Assembly (NCBI GenBank): GCA_001001485.1 | Contig: LCKO01000001.1 | Coordinates: 76,517 to 140,516 of the forward strand | DNA length: 64,000 bases | From: Candidatus Collierbacteria bacterium GW2011_GWB2_45_17 | GTDB lineage: Bacteria > Patescibacteriota > Microgenomatia > UBA1400 > MFAQ01 | Direction: 5' to 3' | Part shown: piece by piece, positions 24,001 through 30,000 of the stretch | Layout of the letters: every line of letters begins with the position of its first letter | How positions within the stretch are numbered: position 1 is the first letter of the stretch | Position numbers: made by a program

Positions 24001-27000
24001 AAGAACACCTTGCTGAAAATCTAAACGAGCTTTATACCGATCCTCGAGCCCGTTACTACTCAGATGACACCACCGGGTTTGATGAAGAATTTCACACTGT
24101 AAATCCATCTCCGGAGGACTTGGTTTTTGATAAAAACACTTATGACGTTTTTACTAATGAAAAATTACTTCAAGAACTAAAGGATAGAAAAATTCACTAT
24201 ATCATTGTCACGGGGATATTTTCAGATGGCTGTGTCCTTTCTTCTGTCATAAGCGGATTTTCCAAAGGTTTCAATTTTGTCATTCTCAAGGATCTTATCG
24301 AGACAACGGATGACGAAAAGAGACAAAGACTCCAAGAGTTGTTAGTCAGTTTTACTTTCCCAAGATTGTATGGCAAAACCATCACCTCCAGTGAGTTATT
24401 GGAAATCTTGTAAAGATTCTTTATGAACAAAGTTCTTCGACTGTTTTTTATCGCCATAGTGATATTCTCCACATATCATCTGATTCGTGATTTACTCACA
24501 AACTTTGGAATTCATAACTACATTGTAGATTTTGCACATCGTTCTCACTTATGGTGTGGAAAATTTTATCCTTGGGTTTGTCATTGGATAACAGTTCCGT
24601 CAGAAATTTTTACTTTAGTCGTGTCGTTAATAATACTAAGACGAAATAGACCAGGAACACTTGGAGTTTTAGTTTTGATTCAAGTACCACTATGGTTATT
24701 ATTAGTTTTATTGCCTTAGATCTACTGACTTCCAAATTTTCTCCAGTTTCTATCGGTTCTGGTTCGATGAATCTTTTCGAGTTTACTTTGCTCTTTTTGC
24801 CATTTTAAAAAAGATCCGCGACAACGGACATCTTTTGTATATGCGATCAGCCATTGGGTTAGTGGCCATTCACCAACTGCCCTACATTTTGTAAATTTGA
24901 AAACTACAAAGTCACGATATTTACTCATGTCGTTATTAGAGATTAGTGGTGTTAGTCTCTTAATAATTTGCAAGAAGCATAAATCGACCTCAGGAGTAGG
25001 TGTGAAATCAGTTCTTTTGAAAACGTGACTGATTTTAATTTCAAACCAAGGATAAAAGAGAATTGAAAGCATACTATTCTTTCTCTGATTAACCATGAAT
25101 TTTTCAGCCGCCTCTTTTTGGACAATCAGACTACAAGAATCCGGTGGATTATCAGAAAACAACAGCTTTTTGACAATCTCCCCGGTTATAGAAAATGGAA
25201 TATTCGAAAAGACTTTGTATGGTTCTCTTGGAAGATCAAGGGCTAAAATATCACTACAAACAAGTTCCAAAGCTATATTGTTCCCCAGACGACTAGACAG
25301 ATGGGCAAATAAACCCTTGTCAATTTCGACTGCAATCACCTTCTTGGAAACAGATAGCAAGCCTTCAGTGAGTATGCCACTGCCGGCACCAATTTCCAAA
25401 ACCGTATTTTTCCACGAAATACCAGAGGCGGCAATGAGCCGCTTTACAAGGTCGCGTCCCCTAAGAAAGTTCTGCGATAGTAGTTTCCGCCGTGTTTTGA
25501 ACATGGCAGAGGATTCTGCAAGTAATCATAATAGCCTCATTATATCAGAACCTAGTTGGTTGTCAACTGTTATAGGCTGATTAACTTGCCTGTTTTGCAG
25601 GCATACTTATAGTATCCTCACTGAAATATAATTAGCCTATGAATCGATATTTATCAATCATTCTAACATTCAACAAAAAAACCCGCCATTCGGCGGGGTC
25701 ATCTTTATTTATCTGGCACCGAGAATGTAAGACTCAAACTGCTGTGCCACTAATTCCTGGTTTTTTAATAGAGCGTAGAGCACATCCCTTATTGAAACTA
25801 TCCCCACCAGCTTTTTCTTATCAATCACCGGCACGTGCCTGATTTTCTTATCTTTCATTAAGTTCAGACAGTCCATAATGTTGGTGAAAGGAGAAACGTA
25901 GGCCGGGTCAGCCGTCATATACTCGGCCACAAACACTTTTTTTGGATCTACTCTGTCTAGCAATACTTTAAAGGCCAGGTCGCGCTCTGTAATAATCCCG
26001 ACCATCTTCCCTTCATCAAGCACCGGCAAGGCTCCAAAACCTTTATCTCGCAGAATCTTGCCTGCCTCATAGACTGTGAACCGGGGACTGACAGCGAAGA
26101 CCTTTTCCGTATCCAAATGAGATACTTTCAGAACATCTAACACTCTCGACATTAATACCTCCAATTTTGATAAGGTGCAGAACTCGGTGATTATACAACA
26201 AAGTCCCAGTCCAGGCTCGAGCCCGACCTATTCGTATCATTTTGATACGATTAAGGTATATGAATGATACGAAGAAGTGCGGTACGAAGCCATAAAACCA
26301 TTCGACACAATCCTAAATTATGCGAATAGTCAAAGTTGTTTCGCCACCCCCGTCAGCCTCAGGCAGAGTGGCAATCCAGAATCTTGTCATTCCGGTCCGC
26401 CAGTTGGCGGATGACCCGGAATCTATACAAATTTCCATCTGATATTTATGGATTGAGCCAGCCTTGGCCTAACGGCCAAAGTGCCTGCTTCGCAGGCACA
26501 AGAAACACTCTAACTTTATAGTAATCAAGAAGTGTAAAATTCACCTATGGCGATAGAAGAAATTGCAGCTGAAACAGATGTACTCAAAAAACCAGAAGTA
26601 AAAGTTGAGACAGATAGAATAGTGTCGGAAAGCCAAGAGGCTATAACAACTGCGATACTTAAATACGGCTCCTTGTTAGATGAGTCTACTTTGCTTGGCA
26701 TGATTCAAGGAGCTGCTTTTGAAAGAATTGCTCTTGATTTTATTGAGTTACACAGAATTGGTTATGACTCTCTTGACGACAAGCGTCAAAAACTAATTCT
26801 TGAAAACATTAGAGCCAAGTCAATTCGTAACCCTGACGGAATAATTGCAAGGTCTGGTATAGAAATATATGGAGTATTTGAAGTTAAGTTAGACCCAATT
26901 AGAGATACAAATTATCGAGTATCGGATCAGATAAAACACTTTGGAGAAAACATCTGGGATGCGGTTCAAGAGTTAAGACAGCAGGGCAAACTGGATGAGA

Positions 27001-30000
27001 TTACCGTTGTCAACCCTGAAGAAATAAAAATAGTAGTTATTCACCCAAGAAGTGCTAAAAACGAATATGTCGAAATGGAAATCGAAGAGTTATCCTCAGG
27101 AGTTCTAAAAGGAACAAAGAAGGGTCGTTCTGATATTGAATATATTTTTATTCCTATTACAAAACAAGAAATAGTAGCTTTCGCAAAAACCATAAAGGAT
27201 AGAGTGGTAGATGGGCTTACTGATGATGTGAAATGTTGGATTGTTCCAGATGAATGGGTTGATTAACATACTCTTTGGTGCACACATAGCCAAATCTCTA
27301 CCATTTTTAGATCTGGTGGGCGGGCGCGCGTCCTCCAGAGGCGGATCAGCCTATGGCTGAGGCGACCTCCCCGAAAACGGGCGGGAAATCCCAGAGTGTT
27401 GCCTGTTATAACGAAATTCGAACTTATTTTCGGGACCATTACTAATCTATTGGCTCACCGCTCCACACTCCGTGTCTCGCGTTTCGCCACCCCCGTCAGC
27501 CTCTGGCTGAGCCTCCCCTGCCGGTCCGCCTTTGGCGGAGGCGGAACCACTTGCGCGCGATTTAATATTGTATCCCGACTGCGGTCGGGATGAATTGCTC
27601 TGCGAGCAAGCGCCAGCTATCGCTGTCGCATCTTTATGTTCGCCCGCCTTAGGCGGACGAAGCTCTCTCAATATATGGCTCAGAACATCGTCATTGCGAG
27701 GAGTGCAATGACGAAGCAATCTATATAGATTGCTCTTCCTCGCCATAAAATATCAGATAGTTAGGAGAAATTTTACTATCTGATATTTAAGGGTTGAGAC
27801 AGCATTGGCCTTCGGCCAAAGTGCCTGCTTCGCAGGCACAGTAGATGGTAGAATTCAATTATGAATGAAAAATTACTCGAAAGAGTTAAAGGATTTGAAG
27901 AAACGCTAGAGAAATTTCCAGAAGTTCGATATGCAGGAGATCCTGTACTTAGACAATCAGCATTAGAGGTAACTGTGGAAGAAGGGATTCAGTTAGGAAT
28001 ACTTCTTGGCGAAGTGTTATTGCGTTATCGAGAGGCTGTTGGATATGGTAGGGGATTTGCAGCTCCGCAGATAGGAGAAAACAAGGCTGTCTTTGTCACA
28101 TTTGTGGAAAATAAATTACAGACATTTATTAACCCAAAGATAGTTGAGAAATCAAAGGAAACAAATTTCTATAAGGAACTTTGTTTAAGTTCTGGAATTA
28201 TGTCCGCAGATGTCGAGAGATCTGTTTGGATAGTAATGGAATGGACTGATACAGAAGGTCATAATCATAGCGAAAGATTTGATGGTTTTCTCGCTAGGCT
28301 ATATCAACACGAGGAGGCACATTTAAGAGGAAAACTAAACTTAGATGAGGCAGTAGATGGTGGAATAGAATTTATGCTTTTTGACCCGCTGAAAGAACAA
28401 CTTAGGGACAAAAGATAAAATGAGTGGTTTCTCTGGGCAATCAATTATTGACGAAAAAAGTCATAAAGTACGTCAGTATATTTTTGCGCTGATTTGGATT
28501 GTTATTCTGATTCACTTTCTTAAAGACATCACGCAAGATATTCTAAATATACCCACCTTCCTTGATGCCTTTGGAAATATTCAAGAAGATGTTAGCTGGT
28601 TACCCATCTGGGCACAATCTTTGGTATATGGGACAGGAGTAAGTTCATTTCTGGCGGAAATATTTTTATTGATATCGATTCCTATTATAAAAAAACGAGA
28701 AAAGGGATCAAATTTGGAAAAATGGGTCATTGGAGTCGTTATTTTTATGCTGATATATTTTCCAGTTGTCATATTTCTCGATCCGCGCTACTGAACCAGA
28801 CTCTCCTGGAAGAAAAATGTAAAAATACTAATAGCTACAATACAAATATGAACAAAGTACTACGACTACTTTTTACTACAATACTAGTATTCTCTGTATA
28901 TCATCTGGTTCGTGATTTACTCACAAATTTTGGAATTCATAACTATATTGTAGATTTTGCACATCGTCCTCACTTGTGGTGTGGAAAATTTTATCCTTGG
29001 GTTTGTCATTGGATTACAGTTCCTCCTGAGATTTTTACGTTAATAGTGTCACTAATCGTATTAAAGCGAAACAGAGTAGGAGTACTTGGGTTTTTAGTTT
29101 TATTACAAGTACCACTGTGGTTATTATTAGTCTTATTACCTTAGCAAATGATGTTTCGATCACTTTTTCAAAAAATTGTAAGACAAAGATCTGAAGTTGT
29201 TATTAGTCGCATCTTTCCATTTCTCAAAGACTCAAAAAAGATTTTAGATATTGGTTCTGGGACTGGTGATGTAGCATTTCTGCTAGGGGAACATGGAAAA
29301 GACGTAACGCCTGTTGATGTTAGCGATTTTCATGGTCCTAGACTTGTAAAAACCACGATCTACGACGGACGAAAACTACCATTTCCGAATAACTCATTTG
29401 ATACTGCCATGCTACTTATGGTTATGCACCACACCTCTAACCCAGAAATTGTCTTTGATGAAGCATCAAGGGTAGCCAAAGAATTAGTGGTTATTGAAAC
29501 GTCTGGGGTAGAAAGGTTGTAGAAAAACTAGCCGGTCTAGGGTAATTGTTATAGTGAAGAATCTAAAAACGAACTAACGAAAATGATTCTAGGTAAAGAA
29601 GTCCGCTTAACCGGTTTACAAGCAGATCACTACGGAAGAGTGGTGGCGGATGTTTTCCTTAAAGACGGAACATATATAAATCTGCACATGGTCAAGAGTG
29701 GTTTTACTGCATATATTAGAGCTTACGACCAAAATCTCACCCATATGAAAGAAGCGGGAGATTATGCTCGGCAAAATAAACTAGGTGTATTTAGTCCTGC
29801 CTGTTTCCAGACAGTGCCGGAAAATCCAAAGTGCAAAATCAAAGGAAATCTGGACGAGAAAAACCCCGACAGAAAATTTTACTTAAAGCCAAGTTGTGCC
29901 TATTACGATTCAGTAGTTGTAGAAAAATATTTAGGTGAGCAATGGTTCTGTACGGAGCAAGAAGCAATTCAAGCAGGTTATGTAAAATCCCCGAATTGTA

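What the first reader, a model, noticed from the sequence alone, without database searches (positions are those of the whole stretch)
26165..27860. Repeat-dense, GC-rich non-coding blocks built from nested hairpin modules around ORF 26547-27266
About 380 bp upstream and ~590 bp downstream of ORF 26547-27266 consist of concatenated modules also found elsewhere in the window: R5 (GTTTCGCCACCCCCGTCAGCCTC..., 26338-26430 and 27481-27550), R3 (GTATCCCGAC...GTCGGGATGA, also 23090-23160), an R1 variant, an att-like remnant and R4. The short ORFs predicted here (27396-27593, 27447-27746) are translation artefacts of GC-rich repeats. The ORF they bracket has a possible PD-(D/E)xK signature.
Basis: seen in the sequence. 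Interest (0 to 1): 0.5.

Follow-up and report, generated by a model that had tools for sequence, protein, structure and literature searches.

The report
Hairpin-rich arm of integrated gene cassettes
The GC-rich repeat blocks around this small gene are the junctions of mobile gene cassettes that a serine recombinase has stacked next to a tRNA-Gln gene in a Collierbacteria (CPR) genome; each junction carries a conserved, undescribed ~0.4-kb hairpin-rich non-coding element into whose loops smaller palindromic repeats have inserted.

Summary

The downstream block is not a loose mosaic. From 27399 to 27841 it is one discrete, colinear element, which I call CE. CE has a sharp left boundary and occurs at 33 or more other loci in Collierbacteria-type metagenome contigs. 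R5, R3 and R4 are consecutive CE segments. The upstream block (26338-26500) is a truncated CE.

CE is always co-oriented with a large serine recombinase (LSR) gene (11 of 11 copies), usually as CE, then 3-11 kb of cargo, then LSR, then tRNA. Its left end sits where the tRNA 3' end would be. The "att-like remnant" is genuine. The window holds a stack of cassettes running from about 23.7 kb to tRNA-Gln at 37.1 kb, and ORF239 is a single-gene cassette within it.

Small palindromes sit in CE hairpin loops and differ between strains. They include a cross-phylum GTCATT[G/C]C...G[G/C]AATC family. The short ORFs are artefacts. ORF239 is an orphan with a conserved PD-(D/E)xK-like motif but no assignable fold. 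No Rfam family matches. What CE itself does remains unproven.

The parts
26165..26337 (+). AT-rich spacer between divergent genes (a CBS-domain gene on the minus strand and ORF239 on the plus strand). It contains the perfect palindrome TTCGTATCA-TT-TGATACGAA (26231-26250) between promoter-like hexamers.
   Evidence: The same palindrome directly follows a CE copy in L185, between TTGACC and TACGAT. In L003 it is flanked by TTGATC, a 17-nt spacer and TATGAT. Promoter and operator roles are inferred.
26338..26500 (+). Truncated CE copy. It holds the R5 start (26338-26360), an R6 palindrome GTCATTCCGG..CCCGGAATC (26386-26423) with a nested hairpin TCCGCCAGTTGGCGGA (26396-26411), the 3' half of P2 (26437-26445), P3 (26464-26479) and P4 (26481-26499).
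   Evidence: L003 has the loop GCTTGA instead of the nested hairpin. In L007, L008 and L009 the CE upstream of the same ORF is full length.
26535..26540 (+). TAAAAT, a -10-like hexamer exactly 6 nt before the ORF239 ATG, suggesting a leaderless mRNA.
   Evidence: Read directly from the sequence. The same TA[A/G]AAT-6 nt-ATG spacing is seen at the deformylase gene (27849-27863), L010, L012 and L006 and at several other cargo genes. Inference only.
26547..27266 (+). ORF239, an orphan protein and the single cargo gene of a mini-cassette. It carries a conserved PD-(D/E)xK-like motif (PD 96-97, ExK 112-114).
   Evidence: There is no Pfam, PHROG, PADLOC or PDB hit. Six homologue clusters exist in all. 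The AlphaFold2 model has pLDDT 66 and no fold match. Only 1 of 720 nt differs from L003, while the neighbouring CBS gene is 71% identical.
27287..27366 (+). Right-end att arm of the ORF239 cassette, related to the 3' end of the recombinase gene: ...GTGGGCGGGCGCGCG (27316-27330) and GGCGAC (27361-27366). A 30-nt hairpin insertion interrupts it.
   Evidence: The same sequence without the insertion lies at 31889-31909, at 37044-37064 and in L006, L120 and L180. tblastn finds recombinase C-terminal fragments at equivalent junctions in other loci.
27331..27360 (+). A clean 30-nt insertion, TCCTCCAGAGGCGGATCAGCCTATGGCTGA, with hairpin TCAGCC-TAT-GGCTGA. It has no target duplication.
   Evidence: Alignment A7. 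It is present in the window and in L003 and absent in L006 and in the paralogous junctions.
27367..27398 (+). A 32-nt copy of the spacer that separates GGCGAC from the tRNA-Gln 3' end (the element-type version of the flank).
   Evidence: It has the same length and shares positions with 37065-37096.
27399..27841 (+). Full-length CE, the conserved hairpin-rich non-coding arm of the next cassette. In order it contains:
- the pseudo-tRNA 3'-end left boundary TTGCCTGTTATAACGAAATTCGAAC.. (27399-27461)
- hairpins at 27464-27476, 27496-27510 and 27524-27539
- R3 (27570-27593)
- hairpins at 27595-27609, 27610-27629 and 27639-27661
- the P0 5' strand (27662-27671) and the P1 5' strand (27674-27679)
- the nested R1 variant (27688-27714) and a 20-nt palindrome (27715-27734) in the P1 loop
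- the P1 3' strand (27742-27747) and P2 (27750-27786)
- the P0 3' strand (27794-27803), P3 (27805-27819) and P4 (27821-27839)
   Evidence: The extent of homology to 33 or more independent loci comes. The consensus is and coordinates.
27849..27854 (+). TAGAAT, a -10-like hexamer 6 nt before the ATG of the peptide deformylase gene (27861-28418), the first cargo gene of the next cassette.
   Evidence: Inference only.
23077..23165 (+). Solo CE fragment. It is an R3 hairpin with a 47-nt nested insert in its loop, followed by the next CE hairpin (TTTGCCTTCGGCAAA).
23665..23746 (+). Oldest att remnant plus the CE left end: CCGCGCGGGCGAC, a 32-nt flank copy, then TTGTCTGTTATAACGATATTCGAAC.
31829..31968 (+). 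An 81-nt exact direct repeat of 36984-37064 (the recombinase 3' end), followed by a diverged flank copy and a pseudo-tRNA left end. This is the junction between the recombinase-less cassette and the recombinase-carrying element.
35602..37158 (+). Large serine recombinase gene. Its 3' end runs through the att region and overlaps tRNA-Gln on the other strand.
   Evidence: Pfam domains Resolvase, Recombinase and Zn_ribbon_recom. Overlap is seen.
37096..37169 (-). tRNA-Gln (CTG), the integration target that anchors the cassette stack.
   Evidence: In L010 the ORF239 homologue abuts this tRNA directly.

Best explanation
The window comes from a Candidatus Collierbacteria (CPR) genome. A family of small integrative elements, moved by a large serine recombinase (LSR), inserts beside the 3' end of tRNA-Gln.

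Each element has a fixed layout:
- a pseudo-tRNA 3' end (the att core)
- CE, a conserved hairpin-rich non-coding arm of about 0.4 kb
- cargo genes
- optionally, the LSR gene, whose 3' end forms the other att arm

The element's right arm copies the chromosomal flank. Integration therefore appears to recreate a usable target next to the tRNA. New arrivals push older cassettes outward, where they decay.

The finding's downstream block is one such junction. It holds the right arm of the ORF239 cassette (27287-27366), then the flank copy and the full CE of the next cassette (27367-27841). The upstream block is the truncated CE of the ORF239 cassette itself.

Separately, small GC-rich palindromes insert preferentially into CE hairpin loops, where they do not break the fold. 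This gives the nested look. These palindromes include the GTCATT[G/C]C...G[G/C]AATC family and a 20-nt perfect palindrome.

Shown here:
- the colinearity, boundaries and copy number of CE
- its linkage and co-orientation with the LSR
- the homology of the att junctions
- the strain polymorphisms
- the compensatory changes in the helices

Inferred: the order of integration events and the regeneration of the target site.

My best guess, unproven, is that CE acts as a structured insulator or terminator and as the upstream region for cargo expression. It may also provide accessory sites for recombination.
For: **Organism.** names Candidatus Collierbacteria. Identical DNA is found in GCA_003539025.1.

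**Recombinase and target.** The LSR gene at 35602-37158 has Resolvase, Recombinase and Zn_ribbon domains and abuts tRNA-Gln. An 81-nt exact direct repeat lies at 31829-31909 and 36984-37064.

**Junctions.** Alignment A7 shows GGCGAC, then 32 nt, then TTG[C/T]C..TCGAAC. This pattern is shared by the real tRNA flank and the remnants at 23.7, 27.3 and 31.9 kb. L185 shows the authentic flank fused to the CE left end. In L010 the ORF239 homologue is followed directly by GGGCGCGCGGGCGAC, the flank and tRNA-Gln.

**CE as one unit.**
- The P4 hairpin scan found 75 metagenome stretches.
- Homology to the window runs from about 27361-27404 to 27840 in about 30 loci.
- 33 full copies align with a sharp left boundary and variable upstream context.
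- The order att, flank copy, TTCGAAC, P4 recurs, including in tandem units in L161, L165, L191 and L007-L009.

**Link to the LSR.** Homologues at 51-84% amino-acid identity occur in 10 CE loci. CE is on the same strand in 11 of 11 copies. In nine loci it lies 2.9-10.9 kb upstream, and in L183 it lies directly downstream. The L152 relative abuts tRNA-Glu in the same way.

**Structure.**
- 96.6% of cells are paired in 42 copies.
- 6 of 11 P2 pairs and 2 of 6 P3 pairs show changes on both sides, and 0 of 500 shuffles reach the observed score.
- 19 of 87 RNAalifold pairs are compensatory.
- Folding z-scores are -7 and -8.

**Nested insertions that differ between strains.**
- 26396-26411 in the window against a short loop in L003.
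- A 20-nt palindrome present in L003 only, which also sits inside R1 copies of Woesebacteria.
- The 30-nt insertion at 27331-27360.
- Either an R1 variant or an R6 palindrome in the P1 loop.

**Cassette exchange.** ORF239 differs at 1 of 720 nt between the window and L003. The neighbouring CBS gene is 71% identical and core genes are 92.5-98.5% identical. L003 carries different cargo on both sides.
Against: - No excision product, circular form or clean empty tRNA-Gln site was observed. The integration order and target regeneration are deduced from sequence alone.
- LSRs normally need only about 50-bp sites and leave no long repeats. The 81-nt repeat and a 0.4-kb arm are therefore unusual for this enzyme class.
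- The element with the intact LSR (31910-37064) carries only a diverged CE-like left end, not the canonical CE.
- Parts of CE, such as P3-P4 at 58772-58810, also occur away from any recognisable island.
- About 30% of CE copies are followed by a gene on the opposite strand.
- No promoter or intrinsic terminator is detectable in the block.
- Wobble pairs give no clear strand preference, so the level at which CE acts, RNA or DNA, is open.
Confidence: 0.72

Rival explanations
1. The block is a BIME-, REP- or MITE-like mosaic. Independent small palindromic mobile repeats would have piled up in two intergenic regions, unrelated to site-specific integration.
For: - Sub-modules do exist alone and in many copies. 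R1 has 6 copies in the window and 107 or more stretches in the genome scan, across several CPR lineages and a few other phyla.
- The R6 family shows 48 distinct contexts.
- The 20-nt palindrome shows 15 contexts.
- Presence or absence differs between strains.
- Another mosaic of R1 plus P3-P4 lies at 58.6-58.8 kb.
Against: - The about 445-nt block keeps the same order, spacing and boundaries at 33 or more loci. About 85% of its columns are conserved, including non-palindromic stretches.
- It is always co-oriented with an LSR gene.
- It starts exactly at the pseudo-tRNA att core.
- No terminal inverted repeats or target duplications were seen for CE or for the 30-nt and 20-nt insertions.
Confidence: 0.15
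2. CE is the gene for a large structured non-coding RNA of about 380-450 nt carried by the cassettes. The RNA would regulate or assist the element, for example by controlling cargo or recombinase expression or by taking part in target choice. It would not be a passive DNA arm.
For: - Five or more helices show compensatory changes.
- Possible long-range helices exist: P0, and the left-end TGTTG pairing with CAGCA.
- The P2 loop TAGGAGAAnATTTT is conserved.
- The nucleotide sequence stays conserved where the linked recombinases have diverged to about 52% amino-acid identity.
- Variable hairpins sit in loops, as in known large RNAs.
- No conserved ORF is present.
Against: - No Rfam match.
- No recognisable promoter or terminator.
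- Both strands fold equally well.
- G-T versus A-C mismatches give no consistent strand signal.
- Palindromic DNA can keep apparent covariation without any RNA being involved.
- No expression data are available.
Confidence: 0.3
3. The hairpin blocks are a guide-RNA array, such as a TIGR stem-loop array or a CRISPR-like array, served by ORF239.
For: TIGR stem-loop arrays with variable palindromes are reported around Tas genes in CPR bacteria (PMC12045711). ORF239 is an uncharacterised protein flanked by palindromes.
Against: - ORF239 has no Nop domain and no other Pfam hit, and no fold match.
- The hairpins have tetraloops rather than loops holding two 8-12-nt spacers with box C/D motifs.
- There is no regular periodicity.
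- The same block precedes unrelated genes at dozens of loci.
Confidence: 0.02
4. The GC-rich blocks encode small proteins, namely the called ORFs 27396-27593 and 27447-27746.
For: Gene callers annotated a 99-aa gene there in several assemblies.
Against: The longest ORF differs in strand, frame and length among the 33 CE copies. Indels between strains are not multiples of three. No such gene was called in L003.
Confidence: 0.02

Closest known systems
Staphylococcal and enterococcal cassette chromosomes (SCCmec and relatives), moved by Ccr large serine recombinases. This comparison rests on my own knowledge; PMC6222049 was seen only in the listing and was not read.
   Same: - An LSR-driven element inserts at one fixed chromosomal site.
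- Composite tandem arrays form and include recombinase-less cassettes.
- Short repeated integration sequences mark each junction.
- Cargo is accessory or defence-type.
   Different: - The target here is the 3' end and flank of tRNA-Gln (tRNA-Glu for a relative), not rlmH.
- The host is a CPR bacterium with a genome of about 1 Mb.
- The att homology is much longer: 81 nt, plus a 32-nt flank copy, plus a pseudo-tRNA end.
- Each cassette carries a conserved 0.4-kb hairpin-rich arm, which has no counterpart that I know of in SCC elements.
Tycheposons of Prochlorococcus (bioRxiv 10.1101/2020.12.28.424599, read)
   Same: - Small cargo-carrying integrative elements sit at tRNA genes in a streamlined genome.
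- Partial tRNA copies mark the distal ends.
- Successive integrations push older elements further into the island.
- Degenerate integrase fragments and partial tRNAs are left behind.
- A minority of tycheposons use large serine recombinases.
   Different: Most tycheposons use tyrosine recombinases, and many carry replication genes. The parts of the paper I read describe no conserved structured non-coding arm. The phylum differs, and no sequence relationship was tested.
REP and BIME elements of enterobacteria, and Rickettsia palindromic elements (RPE). This comparison rests on my own knowledge.
   Same: - The small modules are short, GC-rich, imperfect palindromes and occur in many copies.
- They combine into mosaics.
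- Like RPEs, R1 copies sit in frame inside protein-coding genes, here the MiaA-like and Peptidase_S11 genes.
   Different: - The conserved bases are GTCATT[G/C]C...G[G/C]AATC, not the GTAG-type REP head.
- No REP-associated transposase was looked for or seen.
- They insert into the loops of other hairpins.
- The family spans CPR lineages, with single copies in Bacteroidota and other phyla.
Integron gene cassettes with attC sites. This comparison rests on my own knowledge.
   Same: Arrays hold single-gene or few-gene cassettes, each tied to a folded, imperfectly palindromic recombination-associated element. Sequence varies while structure is conserved.
   Different: The recombinase here is a serine enzyme, not the tyrosine integrase IntI. 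The structured element is about 0.4 kb with many hairpins, not a single 60-140-nt attC hairpin. The array grows at a tRNA gene, not at attI.

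Membership tests
LSR-mobilised integrative cassette or island (SCC-like, tycheposon-like) | A large serine recombinase gene at one end of the element | tested here: met
   The gene at 35602-37158 has Resolvase, Recombinase and Zn_ribbon_recom domains. Homologues occur in 10 CE loci.
LSR-mobilised integrative cassette or island (SCC-like, tycheposon-like) | Insertion at a fixed chromosomal target, with target-derived repeats at both junctions | tested here: met
   The stack adjoins tRNA-Gln at 37096-37169. An 81-nt exact repeat is present, and flank plus pseudo-tRNA copies lie at 23.7, 27.3 and 31.9 kb. 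L185 shows the authentic flank fused to the element end.
LSR-mobilised integrative cassette or island (SCC-like, tycheposon-like) | Tandem arrays that include recombinase-less and decaying cassettes | tested here: met
   The window holds three or four units. Tandem units also occur in L161, L165, L191 and L007-L009. Recombinase C-terminal fragments lie at junctions.
LSR-mobilised integrative cassette or island (SCC-like, tycheposon-like) | Demonstrated excision or integration (circular form, empty site) | not testable with these tools
   The support is indirect only. Strain L003 has different cargo around an ORF239 that is 99.9% identical. L010 has ORF238 directly next to the tRNA.
Known RNA families (Rfam 15), including tmRNA and tRNA | A covariance-model match at or near the gathering score | tested here: not met
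   Nothing was found in 22900-37300 at E of 1 or below, except tRNA-Gln and a palindrome-driven chance match to a plant miRNA model on both strands.
MITE | Terminal inverted repeats and target-site duplication | tested here: not met
   The CE ends (TGTTGTCTGTTAT... and ...GCAGGCACAAA) are not inverted copies of each other. The 30-nt and 20-nt insertions show no duplication.
REP/BIME | Short imperfect palindromes in many copies, clustered in mosaics | tested here: met
   for the small modules only.
REP/BIME | Restricted to extragenic space; associated REP-type tyrosine transposase | tested here: not met
   R1 copies lie in frame inside ORFs 909-2015 and 15389-16351. Of 143 copies, 44 are embedded in the sense orientation in long open frames. 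No search for the transposase was possible genome-wide.
TIGR-Tas stem-loop array | An adjacent Nop-domain Tas protein, and regular units with two spacers flanked by box C/D motifs | tested here: not met
   Searches cover the protein. Searches show no periodic units. The definition is taken from PMC12045711.
Integron | An IntI tyrosine integrase with attI and attC sites | tested here: not met
   The only recombinase among the genes scanned from 21.4 to 37.2 kb is a serine enzyme. attC models were not run.
PD-(D/E)xK nuclease (ORF239) | Conserved acidic and lysine catalytic motif | tested here: met
   P96, D97, E112 and K114, together with D45, E46, E59 and Q128, are invariant in six homologues down to 31% identity.
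PD-(D/E)xK nuclease (ORF239) | Restriction-endonuclease-like fold, or a profile match | tested here: inconclusive
   There is no Pfam, PDB-sequence or Foldseek match. The model has pLDDT below 50 across residues 92-130.

The most novel reading that the evidence does not exclude
CE could be a new class of large structured RNA that travels with serine-recombinase cassettes in CPR bacteria and is needed for their biology. It might pair its left-end sequence, which mimics the tRNA-Gln 3' end and flank, with the target or with the element's own ends. That would steer or regulate integration, a role loosely comparable to the bridge RNAs of IS110 elements, but for a recombinase class thought to be purely protein-guided.
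Probability: 0.1. Interest if true: 0.85.

Novelty: new variant of a known kind. Interest (0 to 1): 0.55.

Why it matters
**Genome plasticity in a tiny genome.** The result shows how a CPR bacterium with a genome of about 1 Mb keeps a hypervariable gene store. A serine recombinase stacks small cassettes beside a tRNA gene. Their cargo includes an Erm-like methyltransferase, a peptide deformylase, nucleases and a HEPN-like protein.

**An undescribed conserved element.** CE is a structured non-coding element of about 0.4 kb. Its sequence stays conserved in loci whose linked recombinases have diverged to about half amino-acid identity, and it is absent from Rfam. It could serve as a marker for finding such cassettes in metagenomes, and it is a candidate functional RNA or recombination accessory region.

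**Annotation.** The work flags a widespread small palindrome family that generates spurious small ORFs. The same family sits in frame inside essential genes, which matters for annotating CPR genomes.

Tried and rejected
- **Rfam**, at gathering and E-value thresholds, and **ARAGORN** found nothing in the blocks.
- **Promoter and terminator consensus scans** gave no enrichment and no terminator.
- **A literature search for the R1 sequence string** returned only chance primer matches. A search for CPR palindromic repeats led only to TIGR-Tas, which was rejected on its defining features.
- **ORF239 function** could not be assigned.
  - Pfam, PHROGs, PADLOC and PDB sequence search gave nothing.
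  - An exhaustive profile search of 1.8 billion representatives found only two further relatives.
  - AlphaFold2 on four sequences gave pLDDT 66, and Foldseek against the PDB gave no match below E 0.4.
- **Strand assignment from G-T against A-C mismatches** was inconclusive.
- **IMG/VR scans** for the CE right and left ends found nothing, so there is no evidence that the cassettes are phages.
- **Core length of R1 as a multiple of three** showed no clear bias.
- **A first script for CE-LSR orientation** missed minus-strand copies because P4 is not a perfect palindrome. It was corrected.
- **No covariance model of CE** was built.

Full report

Yes. ORF 26547-27266 is flanked by a 382-nt spacer and a 594-nt spacer. 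These spacers are richer in G+C than the ORF: 45% and about 51-57% against 37%.

- The 23-mer GTTTCGCCACCCCCGTCAGCCTC occurs exactly at 26338 and 27481 (E 3e-7).
- The stretch 26437-26500 matches 27778-27840 at 90.6% (E 6e-15), and a third partial copy lies at 58781-58810.
- The att-like 65-mer 27361-27425 matches 23678-23742 at 89% and 31904-31944 at 85%.
- The ends of the R3 hairpin (27567-27598) match the ends of a longer hairpin at 23077-23151.
- The GTCATTGCGAG module occurs six times, all on the + strand, against 0.02 expected.
- The 19-nt hairpin GTGCCTGCTTCGCAGGCAC occurs three times against none expected.

The blocks fold much better than shuffled controls. Z-scores are -7.1 and -8.0 for the two strands of 27397-27845 and -4.1 for 26330-26505.

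**2. Source and gene context.**

The ORF product is identical to a protein named from Candidatus Collierbacteria, a CPR lineage. The same DNA occurs in GCA_003539025.1 and in several groundwater assemblies.

Rfam finds only RNase P RNA and one tRNA in the window, and nothing in 22900-37300 even at E of 1 or below. The exception is a palindrome-driven chance match to a plant miRNA model on both strands. The tRNA is tRNA-Gln(CTG) at 37096-37169 on the minus strand.

Immediately beside it, and overlapping it on the other strand, is a 518-aa large serine recombinase (LSR) gene at 35602-37158. An exact 81-nt direct repeat (31829-31909 and 36984-37064) covers the 3' end of this gene.

The genes between 23.7 and 35.1 kb are accessory in type. 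They include:
- an isochorismatase-family protein
- an Erm-like rRNA adenine dimethylase
- a CBS-domain protein
- peptide deformylase
- methyltransferases
- a staphylococcal-type nuclease
- a HEPN-like protein
- an S26 peptidase

**3. The att-like remnant is genuine.**

Alignment A7 compares the real tRNA junction with the junctions at 23.7, 27.3 and 31.9 kb. The real junction reads GGGCGGGCGCGCGGGCGAC, then 32 nt, then TTGCCGG..CTCGAACC. The other three share GGCGAC, a 32-nt spacer of the same length, and a degenerate copy of the tRNA 3' end (TTG[C/T]CTGTTATAACGAAATTCGAAC).

In a 78%-identical relative (L010), the ORF is followed directly by GGGCGCGCGGGCGAC, the authentic flank and tRNA-Gln. 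The ancestral position of ORF239 was therefore next to the tRNA. In the window about 9.7 kb has since been inserted between them.

The copy nearest the tRNA has perfect repeats and an intact recombinase. The outer copies are 85-89% identical and lack the recombinase. This fits serial integration, with the newest element next to the tRNA.

**4. The downstream block is one element, not a mosaic.**

I scanned public metagenomes for the terminal hairpin and found 75 stretches. Comparing their upstream sequence with the window shows that homology usually runs from about 27361-27404 all the way to 27840.

Thirty-three full copies align colinearly. They share a sharp left boundary, TGTTG[T/C]CTGTTATAACGAAATTCGAACTTATTTTCGGGACCATTACTAATCTATTGGCTCACCGC. 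Upstream of that boundary the contexts are unrelated, unless another cassette's att arm lies there.

I call this about 380-450-nt unit CE. From left to right the anatomy is:
- the pseudo-tRNA end
- three to four short GC hairpins (the R5 region)
- the R3 hairpin
- three more hairpins
- a three-way junction, formed by P0 (CTCAA pairing with TTGAG) enclosing P1 (TATGGC pairing with GCCATA) and P2
- P2 itself, whose stem varies while its loop TAGGAGAAnATTTT is conserved

Coordinates are given.

**5. Structure is under constraint.**

In 42 distinct copies of the P2-P4 region, 96.6% of cells form standard pairs. Six of 11 P2 pairs and two of six P3 pairs show changes on both sides. None of 500 shuffles reaches the observed covariation, and sliding the partners destroys pairing. 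P4 is invariant, but it was the search key.

RNAalifold on 17 short copies predicts 87 pairs, of which 19 have compensatory changes. These include two further hairpins, one being TTCGC..GCGAA against TTCAC..GTGAA in a 7-to-8 split.

The mismatch spectrum does not favour either strand. The constraint could therefore act on RNA or on single-stranded or cruciform DNA. No ORF is conserved across copies, so the called ORFs 27396-27593 and 27447-27746 are artefacts.

**6. CE belongs to the recombinase cassettes.**

The order att arm, flank copy, TTCGAAC, P4 recurs across loci, including in tandem units. Homologues of the window LSR (51-84% amino-acid identity) are present in ten CE-bearing loci. CE is on the recombinase strand in all 11 copies. 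In nine loci it lies 2.9-10.9 kb upstream, giving the layout CE, cargo, LSR. In one locus it lies directly downstream, giving LSR, att, CE.

In L158 the layout is CE, cargo, LSR, tRNA-Gln. In L152 a 52%-identical LSR abuts tRNA-Glu in the same way.

CE stays about 70-92% identical in nucleotides where the recombinases have fallen to about 52% in amino acids. CE was not found in IMG/VR viral contigs.

**7. ORF239 is a one-gene cassette.**

In L007, L008 and L009 the gene sits between two full CE copies. In the window, L003 and L006 the upstream CE has lost its left part (26338-26500).

Between the window and strain L003 the ORF differs at 1 of 720 nt. The adjacent CBS gene is only 71% identical and core genes are 92.5-98.5% identical. 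The neighbouring cargo also differs: L003 has a D-alanine ligase, a C39 peptidase and a type I restriction system. This points to recent exchange of the cassette.

The protein is an orphan:
- Four clusters were found among 5.8 billion proteins, and two more by exhaustive profile search.
- No family or PDB hit was found.
- Residues D45, E46, E59, P96, D97, E112, K114 and Q128 are invariant, which fits a PD-(D/E)xK nuclease.
- The AlphaFold2 model (pLDDT 66, below 50 over residues 92-130) matches no fold.

**8. The nested small palindromes.**

Strain comparison shows clean differences:
- TCCGCCAGTTGGCGGA fills the loop of GTCATTCCGG..CCCGGAATC in the window and L006, where L003 and most other copies have GCTTGA.
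- A perfect 20-nt palindrome, CCTGCCTGCCGGCAGGCAGG, is inserted in the L003 CE only. The same palindrome sits inside R1 copies of Woesebacteria.
- A 30-nt hairpin (27331-27360) splits the att arm in the window and L003, but not in L006 or the paralogous junctions.
- The P1 loop is simple in many copies, but holds an R1 variant (window, L003) or an R6 unit (L006 and others).

R1 has the form GTCATTGCGAG, then a variable hairpin, then G[Y/R]GGC, then AATCTCACTCCA. R6 has the form GTCATTCC, then a hairpin, then GGAATC. Together they form one superfamily with conserved bases and free tops.

Most were from Collierbacteria, Woesebacteria and other CPR genomes. Single copies came from Pedobacter, Flavobacterium, Chryseobacterium, Nitrospira and others. 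About 0.5 chance matches are expected by my own estimate.

**9. Mechanism.**

The best-supported account is as follows. LSR cassettes integrate at the tRNA-Gln 3' end or flank. Because the cassette's right arm duplicates the chromosomal flank, the tRNA-proximal junction stays target-like. This allows stacking, and older units then decay. CE is the conserved arm next to the att core. Small palindromes later colonise its loops.

Two things are inferred rather than shown: the order of integration events, and what CE does. Many cargo genes start 5-60 nt after P4, and 37 of 53 are co-oriented with CE. A recurrent TA[A/G]AAT-6 nt-ATG suggests leaderless starts just outside CE. I therefore favour an insulator or terminator-plus-upstream-region role. 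Accessory recombination sites and a functional RNA remain live alternatives.

**10. Comparison with known systems, and novelty.**

It works like SCC-type cassette chromosomes (my own knowledge) and like tycheposons. It is not a member of any Rfam family, TIGR array, integron or classical MITE; see the membership tests.

The cassette system is a new variant of a known kind. CE and the loop-invading palindrome family appear to be undescribed in the literature I could search.

Noticed in passing
window 1103-1170 and 1610-1654 (inside ORF 909-2015); 15423-15466 (inside ORF 15389-16351): R1 palindromic repeats lie in frame inside a MiaA-like IPP transferase gene and a Peptidase_S11 gene. In the first they add peptides such as SLRGAKRRGSPGYPLRVNLTPS directly after the P-loop helix. 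The Peptidase_S11 copy is absent from strain L003, which differs by a 54-nt indel. Across the fetched loci, 44 of 143 R1 copies are embedded in the sense orientation in long open frames, against 10 in antisense. This resembles the Rickettsia palindromic elements.
   Followed up: partly
window 31943-32035 and 35304-35396: A perfect 93-nt inverted repeat brackets a 3.3-kb low-GC segment (30-34% GC) that holds three genes. The inner junction at 35396, read in reverse, looks like the recombinase-flank plus element-left-end junction of the L158-type element. This suggests a recombinase-mediated inversion or a nested second element.
   Followed up: partly
window 35602-37158 versus 37096-37169: The recombinase ORF runs 63 nt into the tRNA-Gln gene on the opposite strand. 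Its last codons would therefore change on excision. The same overlap is seen for a 52%-identical recombinase and tRNA-Glu in L152.
   Followed up: partly
window 24422-24719 and 28847-29144: A 98-aa membrane-protein gene is duplicated at 84% nucleotide identity. The copies occupy equivalent positions in two successive cassettes, 4425 nt apart, so the two cassettes appear to be related.
   Followed up: no
window 58605-58880: A second intergenic mosaic. It holds an R1 copy with a nested 23-nt insert, then a P3-P4 double hairpin, then a near-consensus promoter (TTGACA, 17 nt, TATATT) ahead of a gene starting at 58881. The product begins MNKLIFATGNRAKL; I took it to be Ham1/ITPase-like but did not check this with any tool. 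The locus is conserved in the 790-kb contig Ga0265292_1000009 (L194).
   Followed up: partly
window 26535-26549, 27849-27863, and many loci: A -10-like hexamer TA[A/G]AAT lies exactly 6 nt before the ATG, with no Shine-Dalgarno sequence. This recurs at cargo genes and suggests that leaderless mRNAs are common in this lineage.
   Followed up: no
window 30088-31071 (minus strand): A 327-aa protein gives weak HEPN (RiboL-PSP) and PADLOC hits (PDC-S64, E 1e-7; Csm6-like). It is probably defence cargo in the recombinase-less cassette.
   Followed up: no
window 12028-12061, 12321-12354, 12387-12420: Three copies, two of them identical, of a different AT-looped hairpin repeat, GTAGGGGTTTCATTTATGAAACCC. 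It is unrelated to CE.
   Followed up: no
window 20135-20662: Three tandem 159-nt coding repeats, each with a CxxC..C zinc-ribbon-like motif, within a 175-aa ORF that has a faint Zn_ribbon_Top1 hit.
   Followed up: no
L161, L165, L191 (metagenome loci): Tandem arrays of att, CE and cargo units with cargo as short as about 1.1 kb. Single-gene cassettes like ORF239 therefore appear to be common in this system.
   Followed up: partly
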